Below, one piece after another: positions 26,748 through 34,624 of a stretch of DNA of 64,000 nt. Position 1 is the first letter of the stretch. Every line of letters starts with the position of its first letter. The stretch comes from a virus. The DNA lies in the IMG/VR virus record IMGVR_UViG_3300042924_005659; one strand, given 5' to 3'. The notes beneath the pieces were generated by a model. The model was not told the origin of the DNA and ran no database searches. It worked only from the letters and a program-made list of their open reading frames with translations. Both the position numbers and the translations under genes were made by a program.

Positions 26748-27112
26748 ATGGAACCTCCCTTGTATAGGGGCTCGGGTAAGGTGCGTCCTTTGACCTTTAG
26801 GTCGTGCGTATATTGCATTGGATAATGCTTAGATATACGGAACGCCAGATCTCGTACGTCTCCAGGAACTCTAGGAGTCTTTACGGGATCCAAAAGATTA
26901 AGCAGAAAATCTCTACCGGCATTCAAACCGGCAACCTTGTCAGCATGGCTGCATGCCGGCTCTGTTTCCAGCCTATCCACCATCTGATAGACGGTATAGG
27001 CCGTATTCCTAACAGCTCTTGGAACCTTGGGAAAGAGTCTTGTGTCTAGTAGGTCCATGAAAAACTTTCTGGCCCACATCAATGATCTTATTTCTTCTTC
27101 CTTTGTGCTCAT
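26738..27112 (-). CDS. Hypothetical protein with internal duplication
   Basis: Two similar halves (ARKFFMDLLD..PKVPRAVR / GRDFLLNLLD..PRVPGDVR). Confidence 0.6.
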   Translation of the reverse strand: MSTKEEEIRSLMWARKFFMDLLDTRLFPKVPRAVRNTAYTVYQMVDRLETEPACSHADKVAGLNAGRDFLLNLLDPVKTPRVPGDVRDLAFRISKHYPMQYTHDLKVKGRTLPEPLYKGGSIWA

Positions 27113-27756
27113 AGTCTTCCTGCTACATGTATGGACTTGGCAGCCAATTGATCGATGAGCATCATTGCATCTAGATCCGGAGAATCATTTTTAAATGCTA
27201 TTCCCAGATCCTTGCATCCTCTCCAGAACCAGTGCGGCAGCGTATTGACGTCCTTCCAATACGCAAACCGAGACTTTGCCCGAATGTAGTAGTTTCTGTA
27301 ACTCTCCACCTGCCCTGTCAGCTTGTACTCGTCTGGCATCGCTACTGCGAATGCCTCCAGAGCTCCGGTCTGAATCTTGCCAGGAGGATATCGCAACAGA
27401 GACATTACCGGTTCGGACCGATGCACCTTGCCGTACCGACGAGTGTACTCCCGGCACATGGCAGCACCATGCCGATGCAGCCATAGGTAGTTCTCATGGG
27501 TGCTCCTGGCCCAGACGGAGCATGGATGATTTACGTAGCTGGCCAGATACAGCTGTGTCTCCAGTACGGGATCCGGCAGAGTCCAGCGCTTTACGTTTCT
27601 GTTGGTCAGGGTGAGACCCTGGCCCTGAACGCCGTCGATCAGTCTGTGTGCGGTGCATAGCAGCTGCGTGGTCTCGACGATCATCTTCGGTATGTGCTTG
27701 TCGCACAGAGTATGTGCGGCAATCTCAGGATCGCAGTGGGTGGCAAAAATGTTCAT
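27109..27756 (-). CDS. Pyrimidine-dimer DNA glycosylase / endonuclease V-like protein
   Basis: MNIF..DP..AA..LCDKH..KMIVET.QLLCTAH, NHPCSVWAR, YRNYY motifs. Confidence 0.75.
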   Translation of the reverse strand: MNIFATHCDPEIAAHTLCDKHIPKMIVETTQLLCTAHRLIDGVQGQGLTLTNRNVKRWTLPDPVLETQLYLASYVNHPCSVWARSTHENYLWLHRHGAAMCREYTRRYGKVHRSEPVMSLLRYPPGKIQTGALEAFAVAMPDEYKLTGQVESYRNYYIRAKSRFAYWKDVNTLPHWFWRGCKDLGIAFKNDSPDLDAMMLIDQLAAKSIHVAGRL

Positions 27757-28136: not shown

Positions 28137-28274
28137 TCAGAGTTTTCGAGACACCCAATAGGTGTAGAGAGCCAGGTAGATCTTCAGTAGTGTCATAGGA
28201 GTGCCTTTGGACTTGAACCAAATTACTGGTGTTATCAGACGAACTGGAATGAACCCTGTGTCTGTTTATAGCAT

Positions 28275-28535
28275 TTACGCCAGCCGCGTCTTTTCAACGC
28301 TGCGTGTTCCCGCCACGCCGGGCACTCGGGTTTTCCGTGTTACCGGCTCTCGGACTATGCCAATGTCCTTTGGAGCCTGGATGAGAATGCGAATAATGGC
28401 GTCTTCTCCGTGACGCTCGTTGATCAGAATCCGAGCGATGACGTTTCCCTCCGCGTCTTTGAGCACGGCAGCTTCCTTGCAGCCGATGCTGAGTGCGAGA
28501 TTGCCAAACTTAACGCTATCCTTAGCCTTCGTCAT
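28275..28535 (-). CDS. CsrA/RsmA-like (carbon storage regulator fold) RNA-binding protein
   Basis: Start re-assigned to MTKAKD (the upstream part overlaps the tmRNA); LALSIGCKEAAVL...IARILI...IIRILIQAPKDIGIVRE resembles CsrA (VRIGIxAPKxxxxxRxE). Confidence 0.55.
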   Translation of the reverse strand: MTKAKDSVKFGNLALSIGCKEAAVLKDAEGNVIARILINERHGEDAIIRILIQAPKDIGIVREPVTRKTRVPGVAGTRSVEKTRLA

Positions 28536-28608
28536 GTACTTGCTTCCATACAAGTGATGTGAAAATTGCGTTATCTGGGAATGCGCAAACCCTCCCTGAT
28601 TGAGACAA

Positions 28609-28974
28609 TGGACCTGGGGGGAGTCGAACCCCCGTGCTGAATGACGTATTGAAAGAGCAACTACAAGCTTATCCCACAATTGCAGTTCGGATTTGCTCGA
28701 CCCCATGGGCAGGGTTTGCAGATCCTATCCGACTTCGATTCTCAACGGGGTTGGCTCGGAAGCCTCCACCGCCATACCCTGCTGGGTTTTATCCTGAGCG
28801 TCTAGCAGGAGTCCTGCTCAGGATTCCAAGTCAGGCCGCTGCGAGAGCGGGGGACTCAGAGGGGACGTACCATTCGTTGGCAGTCTTGATTTAGTCGACT
28901 TTTTACGGAGCCTTTCGACCAACTCCGGCTTGCTCTCTATCGCAACAATCACCAGTCGAAACCTGGTCAGGCCC
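28609..28974 (-). ncRNA. ssrA: tmRNA (transfer-messenger RNA), tag ANEWYVPSESPALAAA
   Basis: 5' GGGCCTGACCAGGTTTCGAC; 3' CACGGGGGTTCGACTCCCCCCAGGTCCA; acceptor stem with G3-U70 and A73; tag ORF at 28881-28831 ending ALAAA-stop; CCA not encoded. Confidence 0.92.
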
Positions 28975-29009
28975 TAAGACTGGAAGCATATCTCAGCTTC
29001 CAGCGAAAG

Positions 29010-29246
29010 TCAAAGGCAGTCTTCCGTCGAGGGAACCTTTCCTTTGCTTTCAAAGAATTTCCAAGCACGGCAAAGCACACAATCTGAATCCCAGCTTTTG
29101 CACCTAGGCCCCCACAGACGCTCCATGGTGCGCTTGGTGTGCTCTCTAGGAGAACACAATTCGCATATTTTGTGCCCATGGTCCGAATCGGACATTGAGA
29201 GTGGATCTGCACAAACTAGGCATCTCATTGATGTATCCTTACTCAA
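29010..29246 (-). CDS. Hypothetical Cys-rich (Zn-binding) protein
   Basis: CLVC...CELC...C...CVLC. Confidence 0.55.
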   Translation of the reverse strand: MSKDTSMRCLVCADPLSMSDSDHGHKICELCSPREHTKRTMERLWGPRCKSWDSDCVLCRAWKFFESKGKVPSTEDCL

Positions 29247-29787
29247 GAGTTACGTAGCCAGTACCTGAGCCATCCGCAGGCCAACGGGGATCCTGCTCAT
29301 GCATGTACTGGTGAAATCGATAGGCTGTTCCCTTTCGCACCAGGATCAGTTCACGGCACTGCTCGTGAGCGCAGTTCATCGTGGAGTTGTCCGCATCGCT
29401 GACGGACTTCAAGTCCGGCAGAAAGAAAGCCTGCTGGCATTTAGGACACTTGACTCCCACCATTACTTTGTTCATTTGTGGTCTTTCGATGTGCAAAAGA
29501 GGCAAAAACTCAGAACTTATCTCAAGATTAGGGCTTTCCCAATCTAAGCCGGCCTCTATAAGCCATTTGTCGAATTTGCTGCAAGTGACAGCCCCTATGT
29601 TTTTCTGAGCCATCCAAAAGCCTCTAGAGAAATGGGCTAGATCGTTGAGTATCAAGTGGTCTACATGGCGCCGCTCTATTTTTAATTTGTAAGCAGCAGA
29701 GCCGCGAAGCCATACGGCTCGTACAGCATTTTTGGCTTTTGTGTTTGGCTCTAGTAAGTCTAGAATTTTTGATGTTGCTGTAACCAT
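29239..29787 (-). CDS. Hypothetical protein with Zn-ribbon
   Basis: CPKC...CAHEQC. Confidence 0.55.
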   Translation of the reverse strand: MVTATSKILDLLEPNTKAKNAVRAVWLRGSAAYKLKIERRHVDHLILNDLAHFSRGFWMAQKNIGAVTCSKFDKWLIEAGLDWESPNLEISSEFLPLLHIERPQMNKVMVGVKCPKCQQAFFLPDLKSVSDADNSTMNCAHEQCRELILVRKGTAYRFHQYMHEQDPRWPADGSGTGYVTLE

Positions 29788-29929
29788 GGTTTAAATTCGT
29801 GCCAGGAATCCGTTATGACCTGGCTTGACCCTACGGGTCCTTTGAAGCCTCGACAGCTAATCTGCCACCTTCAGCGAGGGGATGGGACTGCATCCTCTAG
29901 GGATTGTGCTTCCGGCCTTATTACTGGCT

Positions 29930-30009
29930 GTGACTTGGCAGGATTCCAGCGGGTACCTGCATTCTCCGGTTTATCCTCCGGTGCTTTTGGTCTGTTAAGC
30001 TACAAGTCA
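29930..30009 (-). ncRNA. Degenerate tRNA-like cloverleaf (80 nt)
   Basis: Acceptor TGACTTG/CAAGTCA, TA, D-stem GCTT/AAGC, anticodon stem CCGG/CCGG with 8-nt loop AGGATAAA, T-stem GCAGG/CCTGC with 13-nt loop. Confidence 0.6.
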
Positions 30010-30014
30010 CAGAG

Positions 30015-30220
30015 TGGAGTCGACGGGAGTTGAACCCGCATATGATTGTATAGAACAAGGTTCTTCCGAAGGAACACTGACATAGATGACAGCACGGTGA
30101 TAATGCTGGTCTTCCATATTCCGCGATAAAATATGGAATAGTCATACAATGCTTTGATCTTTGCAATCATATCTTTCGATACTTCGTAATATCGAGACAG
30201 CAACCGGCTGTAGCGACCCC
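30015..30220 (-). ncRNA. 206-nt tRNA/tmRNA-like RNA with alanine-type acceptor stem
   Basis: GGGGTCG/CGACTCC-A acceptor (G3-U70, A73); T-arm GCGGG-TTCAACT-CCCGT; 9-bp long-range helix ATATGATTG/CAATCATAT; internal hairpins. Confidence 0.65.
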
Positions 30221-30226
30221 ATGAAA

Positions 30227-30313
30227 CGGACAGGGTGGGATTCGAACCCACGGTAGGATTGCTCCTACACAGCATTTCCAATGCTGCTCCTTCAACCGCT
30301 CGGACACCTGTCC
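30227..30313 (-). tRNA. tRNA-Ser (GGA)
   Basis: GGACAGG/CCTGTCC acceptor; anticodon arm CAGCA-TTGGAAA-TGCTG; long variable arm; TTCGAAT T-loop. Confidence 0.93.
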
Positions 30314-30375
30314 AAACCGCAGGCCTGGAGCAGCGCAGAGCATACTCCAGGCCTGGGTAACACGCCCGCACGCTC

Positions 30376-30627
30376 TCAGCGGGGCTTGGTGGAGGAGCAG
30401 CGGCTGATGCGATCGTCCTGATCAGCGACTACTCTCTCGATTTCGTCTGTACGACGCAGCGTGTCTCGGCGCAGGTCTTCAACTGCTTCCCACAGGTCCC
30501 TACGAACGGACTCAAACTCCCCCTCTTGTGCCTTACGGGCAGCCTTGGAAAGCTCGTGCCAGTAGAGAGCGCCCATGATTGCAGTGGTGCAGGCAAATGC
30601 GATTACGGCGATTTCGGTAAATGTCAT
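30376..30627 (-). CDS. Membrane-anchored hypothetical protein
   Basis: N-terminal hydrophobic helix plus coiled coil. Confidence 0.55.
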   Translation of the reverse strand: MTFTEIAVIAFACTTAIMGALYWHELSKAARKAQEGEFESVRRDLWEAVEDLRRDTLRRTDEIERVVADQDDRISRCSSTKPR

Positions 30628-30702
30628 TCGATTCCTTTTCTTAGGTTTCAGTCGCGAAGTGCGACCCTACAGGGTCGCAGTCTAGCAAAGAAACTTCAAG
30701 TG

Positions 30703-31062
30703 TCAAACAAGAGCGTAATGTGATTTACGAGCGCATTCTGTACATAGCACTCGCAACCATTTATTTCTTTTGTGCATTGCGCTGGGATAGTAACCGCAGT
30801 CCTGGCAGGTTCTGGAAGCCTGTAGGGAGAACCCCTTTACAATGTTTACAGATATCAACGTAGGATTAACCAACTTTACATCCAGGGTTCCGTACAACTC
30901 CTTCATGCTTTGCACGGTGAAATCTCTGGAGACTAGCTGCTGCTGTCTAAGAGTATTGAACTCATGTAGCAGATCTATTCCCAGCATTACCCAGCCTTTT
31001 GGAAGCTGAATGTTCATCACGTCTACAAAGTCATAATTGGGATAAATTGGGAATGGTTGCAT
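30703..31062 (-). CDS. Hypothetical protein with C-terminal Zn-finger
   Basis: TCQDCG...VLCTEC. Confidence 0.55.
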   Translation of the reverse strand: MQPFPIYPNYDFVDVMNIQLPKGWVMLGIDLLHEFNTLRQQQLVSRDFTVQSMKELYGTLDVKLVNPTLISVNIVKGFSLQASRTCQDCGYYPSAMHKRNKWLRVLCTECARKSHYALV

Positions 31063-31094
31063 GGTGCTAATCAGCGGTAGATTATGTTAACGCG

Positions 31095-31277
31095 TTAAAG
31101 CACCTTTTGCAGTAGACGAGAAATGGTGTGCAGCAGAGACCAGATCAGCAGGCCAAGCATGGCCCACCAACCTCCTTGCCACATCAAAGCCACAGGAATG
31201 GCCAATAGGACCAGTACAAGGGCCAGTAGACCCACAATCATGGTAACGGCAAGCAGCGCCGCAAGCCAGCCTCTCAT
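31095..31277 (-). CDS. Small two-helix membrane protein
   Basis: Start re-assigned to MRGWLAA (ATGA overlap); highly hydrophobic. Confidence 0.55.
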   Translation of the reverse strand: MRGWLAALLAVTMIVGLLALVLVLLAIPVALMWQGGWWAMLGLLIWSLLHTISRLLQKVL

Positions 31278-34526: not shown

Positions 34527-34624
34527 TGCACCCGGTGGGATTCGAACCCACATTATCCGGCTTATCTGGCCGGTGCTTTAACCTGATTATAAGGCAGGCT
34601 GCTTAACCATTTAGCTACGGGTGC
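34527..34624 (-). tRNA. Atypical tRNA-Ile with two anticodon-like arms (TAT and GAT), 98 nt
   Basis: GCACCCG/CGGGTGC-A acceptor; T-arm GTGGG-TTCGAAT-CCCAC; arms GCCTGC-CTTATAA-TCAGGT and CCGGC-CAGATAA-GCCGG. Confidence 0.75.

What the first reader, a model, noticed from the sequence alone, without database searches (positions are those of the whole stretch)
30015..30220. Second, compact 206-nt RNA with an alanine-identity acceptor stem and T-arm but no tag or anticodon arm
The RNA starts 6 nt after tRNA-Ser. Its ends form GGGGUCG/CGACUCC-A with the G3-U70 wobble and A73 (AlaRS determinants). The 3' end GCGGGUUCAACUCCCGUCGACUCCA closely mirrors tmRNA 3' ends. A 9-bp helix (30164-30172 with 30040-30048) replaces the anticodon arm, as tmRNA helix 2 does. 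Extra hairpins (ACAGC/GCUGU, UCGAUA/UAUCGA) replace the D-loop, and others (UUCCAUAUU/AAUAUGGAA, CAGCA/UGCUG) fill the interior. No frame gives a tag ending in AA-stop. It could be an undescribed aminoacylatable tRNA/tmRNA mimic, such as a decoy for SmpB, EF-Tu or anti-phage nucleases.
Basis: partly seen in the sequence, partly recalled or inferred. Interest (0 to 1): 0.82.

Follow-up and report, generated by a model that had tools for sequence, protein, structure and literature searches.

The report
Alanine-type tRNA-like RNA with giant arm
A freshwater jumbo phage carries, inside its tRNA/tmRNA gene cluster, a 206-base RNA gene built like an alanine tRNA with odd D and anticodon hairpins and a 133-base branched domain in the variable loop; it is probably a non-decoding tRNA mimic, of a kind known from phage T4 RNA C and the phage DS6A mini-tmRNA, and its function is unknown.

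Summary

The reading "no anticodon arm, tmRNA-like" is only partly right. The phage's own tRNAs align to it as a cloverleaf:
- hairpin 1 sits at the D-arm position;
- hairpin 2 sits at the anticodon-arm position, with an 8-nt loop UUACGAAG;
- the 133-nt block sits in the variable loop and abuts the T stem.

It is not a tmRNA (Rfam 14 bits against a 47-bit cut-off, no tag frame) and not a canonical tRNA.

Its exact 3' motif occurs in bacterial genomes almost only in tmRNA and tRNA-Ala, so the ends are of the alanine-acceptor type.

Only three near-identical variants exist, so there is no covariation. In the most diverged variant the 73-nt core has 0 changes, the insert has 10 of 134, and neighbouring ORFs are 6-29% diverged.

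The gene is cleanly deleted in one sister lineage and absent from all other relatives examined, so it is an accessory gene.

Closest known are T4 RNA C and the TLD-only "tmRNA" of phage DS6A. I rate it a new variant of a known kind, of moderate interest. Expression could not be tested.

The parts
30015..30220 (-). Whole tRNA-like RNA gene, 206 nt including discriminator A at 30015. CCA is not encoded.
   Evidence: Identical copies in L097, L098, L100, L107, L108 and L112.
30214..30220 (-). Acceptor stem 5' strand GGGGUCG (positions 1-7). G3 pairs with U70-equivalent.
30197..30211 (-). D-arm-position hairpin ACAGC-CGGUU-GCUGU. The stem is 5 bp and the 5-nt loop contains GG. Position 8 is C, not U.
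30176..30195 (-). Anticodon-arm-position hairpin UCGAUA-UUACGAAG-UAUCGA. It is a 6-bp stem with an 8-nt loop; the MFE closes it to 8 bp with an ACGA tetraloop.
30040..30172 (-). 133-nt branched domain in the variable loop. It is closed by the 9-bp helix AUAUGAUUG/CAAUCAUAU and abuts the T stem. All 10 differences among the variants lie here.
30023..30039 (-). T arm GCGGG-UUCAACU-CCCGU.
30015..30022 (-). Acceptor 3' strand CGACUCC plus discriminator A.
30227..30313 (-). tRNA-Ser(GGA), 6 nt upstream in the same array.
29930..30009 (-). Second aberrant tRNA-like element 5 nt downstream. RNase P cleavage at its 5' end would define the candidate's 3' trailer (inferred).
30679..30706 (-). Promoter-like site TTGACA-16-TAGACT upstream of ORF83. 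It is a possible start of the ORF83 / tRNA-Ser / candidate transcript, on consensus match only.

Best explanation
This is a tRNA-derived accessory RNA gene under selection, not a tmRNA and not a normal decoder.

Likely pathway, inferred from layout and known enzyme rules (not shown):
1. It is transcribed as part of the polycistronic ORF83 / tRNA-Ser / candidate / tRNA-like-2 precursor.
2. RNase P cuts its 5' end at G1.
3. Its 3' end is trimmed after RNase P cuts the next tRNA-like element 5 nt downstream.
4. CCA is added after transcription, because no tRNA gene in this window encodes CCA.
5. AlaRS can charge it, because G3-U70 with A73 in an acceptor/T minihelix is sufficient for that enzyme.

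Its anticodon-position hairpin has an 8-nt loop (or 8 bp with a tetraloop) and its variable arm is 133 nt. I therefore take it to be a non-decoding tRNA mimic that acts through its invariant tRNA-like core. It would occupy or divert a factor that binds tRNA or tmRNA, such as AlaRS, EF-Tu, a modification enzyme, a host tRNA-targeting nuclease or, less likely, SmpB. The large arm would be a tolerated or auxiliary appendage.
For: - Cloverleaf homology to the phage's own tRNAs, with only positions 49-181 skipped.
- ARAGORN calls a tRNA once the insert is removed.
- Canonical T loop, and a 3' motif otherwise found in tmRNA and tRNA-Ala.
- Tight spacing in a tRNA array: 6 nt and 5 nt spacers.
- No encoded CCA in any of the nine tRNA/tmRNA genes of the window.
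- Selection in variant L104, which is 87% identical overall. The core has 0 differences in 73 nt and the insert 10 in 134. ORFs are 71-94% identical. Fisher tests give core vs insert p = 0.011 and core vs pooled ORFs p = 0.0003.
- All 71 predicted pairs are intact in the window type. Of five changes at paired positions, three keep pairing (A-U to G-U, U-G to U-A, U-G to C-G).
- The sequence is identical in the six copies read. The spurious ORF products over it are listed on 21-30 contigs from NCBI, JGI, ENA and Logan.
- It is not coding: L104 has a frameshifting indel and the changes are non-synonymous.
- Precedents exist: T4 RNA C and TLD-only RNAs.
Against:
- Only three variants exist, with no double-sided compensatory change.
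- The gene is dispensable. It is deleted in L096, leaving a 10-nt 3' remnant. It is absent in L111. It is absent from five related IMG/VR records, including a complete 183-kb genome.
- tRNA-Ser, the candidate core, tRNA-like 2 and the 142-nt spacer are all unusually conserved. Part of the signal could therefore be a shared recombination tract.
- No target factor is identified.
- U8 and a normal D loop are missing, so an L-shaped fold is not assured.
Confidence: 0.4

Rival explanations
1. It is a decaying relic: a tRNA-Ala or tmRNA-derived pseudogene disrupted by an insertion. It would be carried along because it sits between functional RNAs in a conserved operon.
For: - Non-canonical D and anticodon loops and C8.
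- The neighbouring element is also an aberrant tRNA-like.
- It is deleted in L096 and absent in L111 and all more distant relatives.
- No covariation.
- The insert has 9-bp terminal inverted repeats, as a small mobile insertion would.
Against: - 0 of 73 core changes where the insert rate (7.5%) predicts about 5.5 and the pooled ORF rate (10.9%) about 8.
- Every helix of the core and of the insert is intact, and z = -3.8.
- There are no other copies of the insert in the window or in related records.
Confidence: 0.2
2. It is a working tRNA carrying an intron or an expansion segment. After removal of the insert, or despite it, the 8-nt loop decodes. It would read either an Arg-type ACG anticodon or the quadruplet anticodon ACGA.
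For: - ARAGORN calls tRNA-?(Arg|Ser)(acga) once positions 49-181 are removed.
- The loop has U33 before and A37 after a 4-nt anticodon.
- Exon-like conservation, with the core invariant and the insert variable.
- Huge phages are reported to carry tRNAs with unexplained "introns" (bioRxiv 10.1101/356790).
- A 98-nt tRNA in the same window also has extra sequence in the variable region.
Against: - G3-U70 would give alanine at Arg or Ser codons.
- At 133 nt the insert is shorter than any bacterial tRNA group I intron I know of, it sits in the variable loop rather than the anticodon loop, and it gives no Rfam intron or ribozyme hit at E <= 10.
- The boundaries show no bulge-helix-bulge motif (sequence).
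- No insert-less allele was found. Relatives lack the whole gene, and core-only pattern scans found nothing real.
- The MFE closes the loop to a tetraloop.
Confidence: 0.12
3. It is an RNA-processing and stability module. Tandem tRNA-like structures would serve as RNase P / RNase Z punctuation that releases tRNA-Ser and defines the 5' end of the downstream mRNA leader. The 206-nt RNA would be a by-product.
For: - Array layout with spacers of a few nt.
- tRNA-like 2 and the 142-nt leader are 98-100% conserved. They are retained in L111 in front of a different ORF.
- No terminator-like site lies in 28400-31200.
Against: - A simple minihelix would be enough for punctuation. That does not explain the invariant D-position and anticodon-position hairpins or the alanine identity set.
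- L096 and L111 manage without this element.
Confidence: 0.12
4. It is a CDS-less tmRNA derivative acting on trans-translation. It would either titrate SmpB, as proposed for the phage DS6A TLD-only RNA, or deliver alanine without a tag.
For: - Weak full-length tmRNA-model hit covering the acceptor stem and T arm (14.1 bits, E = 0.0018).
- The 3' motif is mostly that of tmRNAs.
- The 9-bp helix abuts the T stem, as tmRNA helix 2 does.
- The phage also encodes a full tmRNA about 1 kb away.
- TLD-only RNAs exist in phages (PMC4131195; L222, L224 and L225).
Against: - The score is far below the 47-bit cut-off and below the 24-35 bits of the TLD-only RNAs.
- The D-position and anticodon-position hairpins occupy the space that SmpB fills on a tmRNA TLD.
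- The conserved UUCGAC...GGAC context is absent.
- The phage's own tmRNA does not match the model of this RNA, whereas its tRNAs do.
- No SmpB was found in the complete related genome G004. This is weak evidence, because G004 also lacks the RNA.
Confidence: 0.08

Closest known systems
Phage T4 RNA C (species 1 RNA, rnaC) and RNA D, stable RNAs of the T4 tRNA cluster
   Same: - Placement. In T4 the order is tRNA-Arg, 1 nt, rnaD (119 nt), 6 nt, rnaC (139 nt) at the end of the tRNA cluster.
- rnaC folds with a 7-position terminal stem stacked on a canonical T arm, CCGGG-UUCGAAU-CCCGG, and has long non-tRNA hairpins inside.
- Its function is still unknown (PMC9697503).
   Different: - No sequence or covariance-model similarity.
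- rnaC has no G3-U70 and no hairpins at the cloverleaf positions.
- The candidate keeps hairpins at the D and anticodon positions and puts its extra domain in the variable loop.
CDS-less (TLD-only) tmRNA-like RNA of mycobacteriophage DS6A, and similar mini RNAs found here in IMG/VR contigs (L222/L224, 83 nt; L225, 77 nt)
   Same: - Phage-encoded.
- Alanine-type acceptor and T arm with the identical 3' motif.
- No tag ORF.
- Adjacent to tRNA genes.
- The DS6A form inhibits tmRNA in E. coli (PMC4131195; PMC11915505).
   Different: - Those RNAs are little more than a TLD with one hairpin, and they score 24-35 bits on the tmRNA model.
- The candidate is 206 nt, scores 14 bits, has two additional cloverleaf-position hairpins and a 133-nt branched arm.
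tmRNA (RF00023)
   Same: - G3-U70/A73 acceptor and T arm.
- A helix emerging next to the T stem. From my own knowledge (Bessho et al. 2007, cited in PMC4131195), tmRNA helix 2 mimics a long variable arm.
   Different: - No resume codon or tag.
- No predicted pseudoknot ring.
- It has D-position and anticodon-position hairpins.
- 14 bits against a 47-bit cut-off.
Oversized tRNA genes with unexplained "introns" in huge phages (Lak megaphages)
   Same: - A tRNA gene in a large phage interrupted by a conserved internal block.
- Removing the block leaves a tRNA-like cloverleaf.
   Different: - In Lak phages, alleles with and without the insert define excision points, and the exons are ordinary tRNAs.
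- Here no insert-less allele exists, and the "exons" make a non-canonical tRNA with alanine identity and an 8-nt loop.
Class II (long-variable-arm) tRNAs
   Same: An extra helix emerges between the anticodon stem and the T stem.
   Different: The arm is 133 nt and branched, against 10-24 nt. The D and anticodon arms are non-canonical.

Membership tests
tRNA (RF00005) | 7-bp acceptor stem with discriminator, stacked on a 5-bp T stem with a 7-nt UUCRANY loop | tested here: met
tRNA (RF00005) | D arm of 3-4 bp with a 7-11 nt loop, and U8 | tested here: not met
   The stem is 5 bp, the loop is 5 nt (CGGUU, GG present), and position 8 is C.
tRNA (RF00005) | Anticodon arm of 5 bp with a 7-nt loop | tested here: not met
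   It is 6 bp with an 8-nt loop UUACGAAG, or 8 bp with a 4-nt loop in the MFE.
tRNA (RF00005) | Variable region of 4-24 nt; detected by ARAGORN or Rfam at threshold | tested here: not met
   The variable region is 136 nt. The gene is not called. It is called only at an 80% threshold after removing positions 49-181.
tmRNA (RF00023) | Alanine-type tRNA-like domain (G3-U70, T arm) | tested here: met
tmRNA (RF00023) | Score at or above the Rfam gathering cut-off (47 bits) | tested here: not met
   14.1 bits.
tmRNA (RF00023) | Tag reading frame with resume codon and in-frame stop | tested here: not met
   The open frame runs past the 3' end, L104 has a 1-nt indel, and the changes are non-synonymous.
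tmRNA (RF00023) | No D stem or anticodon arm, the space being filled by SmpB; pseudoknots | tested here: not met
   Two hairpins lie at the D and anticodon positions. Pseudoknots could not be assessed with MFE folding.
TLD-only / CDS-less tmRNA (phage DS6A type) | Little more than the TLD (about 65-85 nt) | tested here: not met
   The candidate is 206 nt. The comparators L222, L224 and L225 are 77-83 nt.
TLD-only / CDS-less tmRNA (phage DS6A type) | Binds SmpB or inhibits trans-translation | not testable with these tools
   Needs a gel shift or an in vivo tagging assay.
T4 RNA C-like stable RNAs of phage tRNA clusters | Lies directly after a tRNA with a spacer of a few nt; terminal stem plus canonical T arm; non-tRNA interior | tested here: met
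T4 RNA C-like stable RNAs of phage tRNA clusters | Sequence or structure homology to rnaC/rnaD | tested here: not met
   No hit of model R1 on the T4 cluster at E <= 10.
Group I intron-containing tRNA | Intron in the anticodon loop with a group I core | tested here: not met
   The insert is 133 nt, sits in the variable loop, and gives no Rfam intron hit at E <= 10.
Phage tRNA with removable insert (Lak type) | Alleles with and without the insert in relatives | tested here: not met
   Relatives lack the whole gene. No insert-less core was found in viral, metagenome or genome collections.

The most novel reading that the evidence does not exclude
The RNA is a functional hybrid between an alanine tRNA and tmRNA. 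It would be a complete, if odd, cloverleaf that is alanylated and enters the ribosome while carrying a tmRNA-helix-2-like domain at the variable-arm position. It would act either as a tag-less rescue RNA or as a quadruplet (ACGA) decoder. That would be a living example of the architecture expected for an intermediate on the path from tRNA-Ala to tmRNA.
Probability: 0.06. Interest if true: 0.85.

Novelty: new variant of a known kind. Interest (0 to 1): 0.5.

Why it matters
Phage tRNA clusters have long been known to hold stable tRNA-like RNAs of unknown function (T4 RNA C and D). A TLD-only RNA from phage DS6A inhibits trans-translation.

This RNA shows a third design. It combines an alanine-identity minihelix with a retained cloverleaf and a large variable-arm domain, and its tRNA-like core is invariant while the arm drifts.

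If it is matured and charged, it would be a tractable case for asking what non-decoding, aminoacylatable tRNA mimics do during infection. Possible roles include titrating AlaRS, EF-Tu or SmpB, or acting as a decoy for tRNA-targeting defence nucleases. It would also bear on how tmRNA-like architectures arise from tRNAs.

It also shows that ARAGORN and Rfam miss such genes. A simple T-loop motif scan found it and one further candidate in the same window.

Tried and rejected
- Rfam at gathering and at E <= 10: only a 14-bit tmRNA hit, and no intron, ribozyme or Y-RNA family.
- GenBank phages by blastn: only tRNA-Ser matches.
- The window's own genome is not held.
- IMG/VR scans with the exact 3' 25-mer and two structured patterns: 0 hits.
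- JGI metagenome scans: 0 hits, then one chance hit, L109, with no stems.
- Genome collection scan with the core pattern: 0 hits.
- The neighbouring ORF182 has no IMG/VR relatives.
- The DNA-binding protein at 27109-27756 is too widespread to mark relatives.
- RNAP-defined relatives (73-90% aa identity) lack the RNA by BLAST and by covariance model. For two records the whole sequence was fetched and searched.
- Variants were finally reached through the spurious ORF that gene callers place over the RNA. This gave only three distinct sequences, so no covariation test was possible.
- Look-ups of P0021 and P0020 led to contexts that do not include the locus.
- Protein-coding reading: rejected.
- Repeated or mobile insert: no second copy was found.
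- Sequence comparison of the 5' 48 nt with tmRNAs and tRNA-Ala: at shuffle level, so the origin is unresolved.
- The "none" class of bacterial 3'-motif hits: the few checked have no G3-U70 5' partner. I read them as partial tmRNA-end copies or permuted genes, not as analogues.

Full report
**Context.** The window is part of a large phage genome.
- It holds ORFs of more than 3,665 aa and of 2,109 aa, and a fused RNA polymerase beta/beta' ORF of 1,640 aa.
- Its closest cultured relative shares only about 30% identity in that polymerase.
- On the minus strand lies an RNA gene cluster with seven ARAGORN tRNAs, one further 98-nt tRNA seen only by Rfam, and a tmRNA scoring 111 bits.
- The candidate lies between tRNA-Ser (30227-30313) and another aberrant tRNA-like element (29930-30009). 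It is about 1 kb upstream of the tmRNA.

**Observation.** Read on the minus strand, the RNA runs from 30220 to 30015.
- The minimum-free-energy fold is -63.9 kcal/mol, z = -3.8, and none of 200 shuffles reaches it.
- The T-loop motif GGTTCRANTCC occurs 11 times in the window, always on the minus strand, against 0.19 expected. Nine are known tRNA/tmRNA genes and one is this RNA.
- The motif GGGTTCAACTCCCnnCGACTCCA hit 87 loci in one genome each of 185,579 species. Of the 80 I classified, 58 end a tmRNA, 12 end a tRNA-Ala and 10 were not called.
- The ends are therefore of the alanine-acceptor type. By the established rules for AlaRS, G3-U70 with A73 in an acceptor/T minihelix suffices for charging. 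That step is inferred, not tested.

**What it is.** Rfam gives nothing at threshold. With permissive settings it gives only a 14.1-bit tmRNA match that covers the acceptor stem and T arm.
- I built a covariance model (R1) from the sequence and its fold. It matches the phage's own tRNA-Lys, tRNA-Met and tRNA-Gly end to end at 19-24 bits, skipping only positions 49-181. It does not match the phage's tmRNA.
- In that alignment ACAGC-CGGUU-GCUGU is the D arm. UCGAUA-UUACGAAG-UAUCGA is the anticodon arm. AAG is the start of the variable loop. The 133-nt block closed by the 9-bp helix is an insertion in the variable loop that abuts the T stem.
- With the block removed, ARAGORN at an 80% threshold calls a 74-nt tRNA-?(Arg|Ser) with the 4-base anticodon acga in an 8-nt loop.
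It remains true that there is no canonical 7-nt anticodon loop. The MFE even closes the loop to a tetraloop.
- It is not coding. The one long open frame overlaps tRNA-Ser, is frameshifted by a 1-nt insertion in variant L104, and carries non-synonymous changes.

**Distribution.**
- Relatives defined by the polymerase (73-90% aa identity, IMG/VR) do not carry the RNA. BLAST and R1 searches of five records were negative. For two of them (183 kb, complete; 129 kb) the whole sequence was fetched and searched directly.
- The complete relative has a single tRNA.
- In L083 the whole module (ORF83, tRNA-Ser, candidate, tRNA-like 2, ORF182) is replaced by unrelated small ORFs.
- I reached closer relatives through the spurious protein that gene callers place over the RNA. 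The sequence is identical in the six copies read, and those spurious products are listed on 21-30 contigs from NCBI, JGI, ENA and Logan. There are two variants.
- L105 and L106 differ by two substitutions.
- L104 differs by nine substitutions and one 1-nt insertion.
- In L096 (flanks about 90% identical) tRNA-Ser and tRNA-like 2 are present, but the candidate is cleanly deleted. A 10-nt remnant, TCGACTGCAC, remains of its 3' end. The ancestor therefore had the gene and this lineage lost it.
- In L111 tRNA-Ser is followed after 12 nt by tRNA-like 2, with no clear remnant.
- The RNA is thus a lineage-restricted, dispensable accessory gene, as phage tRNA genes often are.

**Selection.** Per-feature identity of L104 to the window:

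| Feature | Identity |
|---|---|
| ORFs | 71-94% |
| tRNA-Ser | 100% |
| Candidate core | 100% (0 of 73) |
| Candidate insert | 92.5% (10 of 134) |
| tRNA-like 2 | 100% |
| 142-nt spacer (29788-29929) | 97.9% |

- Fisher tests give core vs insert p = 0.011 and core vs pooled ORFs p = 0.0003.
- All differences lie in the insert.
- Of five changes at paired positions, three keep pairing and two break a pair at a helix end. One of those two is offset by a new C-G pair that extends the closing helix.
- There is no double-sided compensatory change, so the structure is not proven by covariation.
- The pattern says that the tRNA-like core is what selection holds constant. The arm is constrained mainly in its helices.

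**Mechanism.** Shown:
- array position;
- tRNA-like architecture;
- alanine-type ends;
- no encoded CCA in any tRNA gene here;
- core conservation.

Inferred:
- co-transcription from a promoter-like site at 30706-30679;
- RNase P and 3' trimming, CCA addition and alanylation.

My committed reading, at about 0.4, is a non-decoding, aminoacylatable tRNA mimic acting through its core on a tRNA- or tmRNA-binding factor.

Rivals:
- a relic (0.2);
- an insert-bearing decoder, possibly quadruplet (0.12);
- a processing/punctuation module (0.12);
- a CDS-less tmRNA acting on SmpB (0.08). I rate this last one low because the two extra hairpins occupy the space SmpB fills on a tmRNA TLD. The conserved UUCGAC...GGAC context is also missing.

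**Comparison with known RNAs.**
- In T4 the tRNA cluster ends with tRNA-Arg, 1 nt, rnaD, 6 nt, rnaC. rnaC folds with a terminal stem stacked on a canonical T arm, with long hairpins inside. Both RNAs are still of unknown function (PMC9697503). R1 finds no homology there.
- A TLD-only "tmRNA" is recorded for mycobacteriophage DS6A. A similar molecule strongly inhibits tmRNA, perhaps by titrating SmpB (PMC4131195; PMC11915505).
- Scanning IMG/VR with the candidate's 3' motif gave five loci. Two are permuted tmRNAs. Three are tRNA-sized alanine-type mini RNAs next to tRNA genes (L222/L224, 83 nt with encoded CCA; L225, 77 nt). They score 24-35 bits on the tmRNA model, below its cut-off.
- Huge phages are also reported to have tRNAs with unexplained "introns" (bioRxiv 10.1101/356790).
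- The candidate shares features with each of these but fails a defining feature of every family tested (see the membership table). I therefore file it as a new variant of the known kind "phage tRNA-cluster tRNA-like RNA", not as a member of tRNA, tmRNA or TLD-only tmRNA.

**Limits.**
- Only three variants exist.
- The host is unknown.
- The origin (tRNA-Ala or tmRNA) cannot be resolved from sequence. The 5' 48 nt are no closer to either than shuffled controls.

Noticed in passing
window 29930-30009 (-): A second aberrant tRNA-like element lies 5 nt after the candidate. It has a 7-10 bp acceptor stem, an 8-nt anticodon-position loop and a 13-nt T loop. It is 100% identical in L104. In L111 its acceptor stem shows a compensatory A-U to G-C change.
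   Followed up: partly
window 29788-29929 (-): This 142-nt hairpin-rich spacer lies upstream of ORF182. It is 97.9% identical in L104, where ORFs are 71-94% identical. In L111 it is retained in front of a different ORF. It may be a structured leader or a further RNA element.
   Followed up: partly
window 28198-28327 (-): The T-loop motif scan found an uncalled site at 28209-28219. It has a T arm UUUGG-UUCAAGU-CCAAA and a perfect 7-bp closure GAGUGCC/GGCACUC 130 nt apart, and it overlaps the 3' end of an ORF. It is 96-97% conserved in L110 and L221, with an A-U to G-U change in the closure. It may be a third expanded tRNA-like RNA.
   Followed up: partly
window 34527-34624 (-): This 98-nt tRNA is found by Rfam (59 bits) but not by ARAGORN. 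It has anticodon loop CUUAUAA and a roughly 30-nt extra hairpin, CCGGC-CAGAUAA-GCCGG, in the variable region. It is another variable-region expansion in the same phage.
   Followed up: no
L222:3987-4069 (-), L224:1957-2039 (+), L225:200-277 (+): These are tRNA-sized, alanine-type (G3-U70) mini RNAs in IMG/VR contigs, next to tRNA genes. Each has a single long hairpin in place of the D and anticodon arms. They score 24-35 bits on the tmRNA model, below its cut-off. They resemble the TLD-only RNA of phage DS6A.
   Followed up: partly
L223:3689-4081, L226:3636-4027: ARAGORN calls permuted (two-piece) tmRNA genes in viral contigs. They are flanked by tRNA-Ile(TAT), tRNA-Gly(TCC) and tRNA-Lys(TTT).
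   Followed up: no
window 28606-28974 (-) and 28985-29013 (-): The phage tmRNA has a promoter-like site, TTGACT-17-TATGCT, just upstream. ARAGORN's predicted tag ends in ...RIEVG rather than the usual Ala-Ala.
   Followed up: no
window 29239-30627 vs L083:20480-21830: The module ORF83 / tRNA-Ser / candidate / tRNA-like 2 / ORF182 is a variable cassette. In a relative with 88% RNAP identity it is replaced by several unrelated small ORFs.
   Followed up: partly
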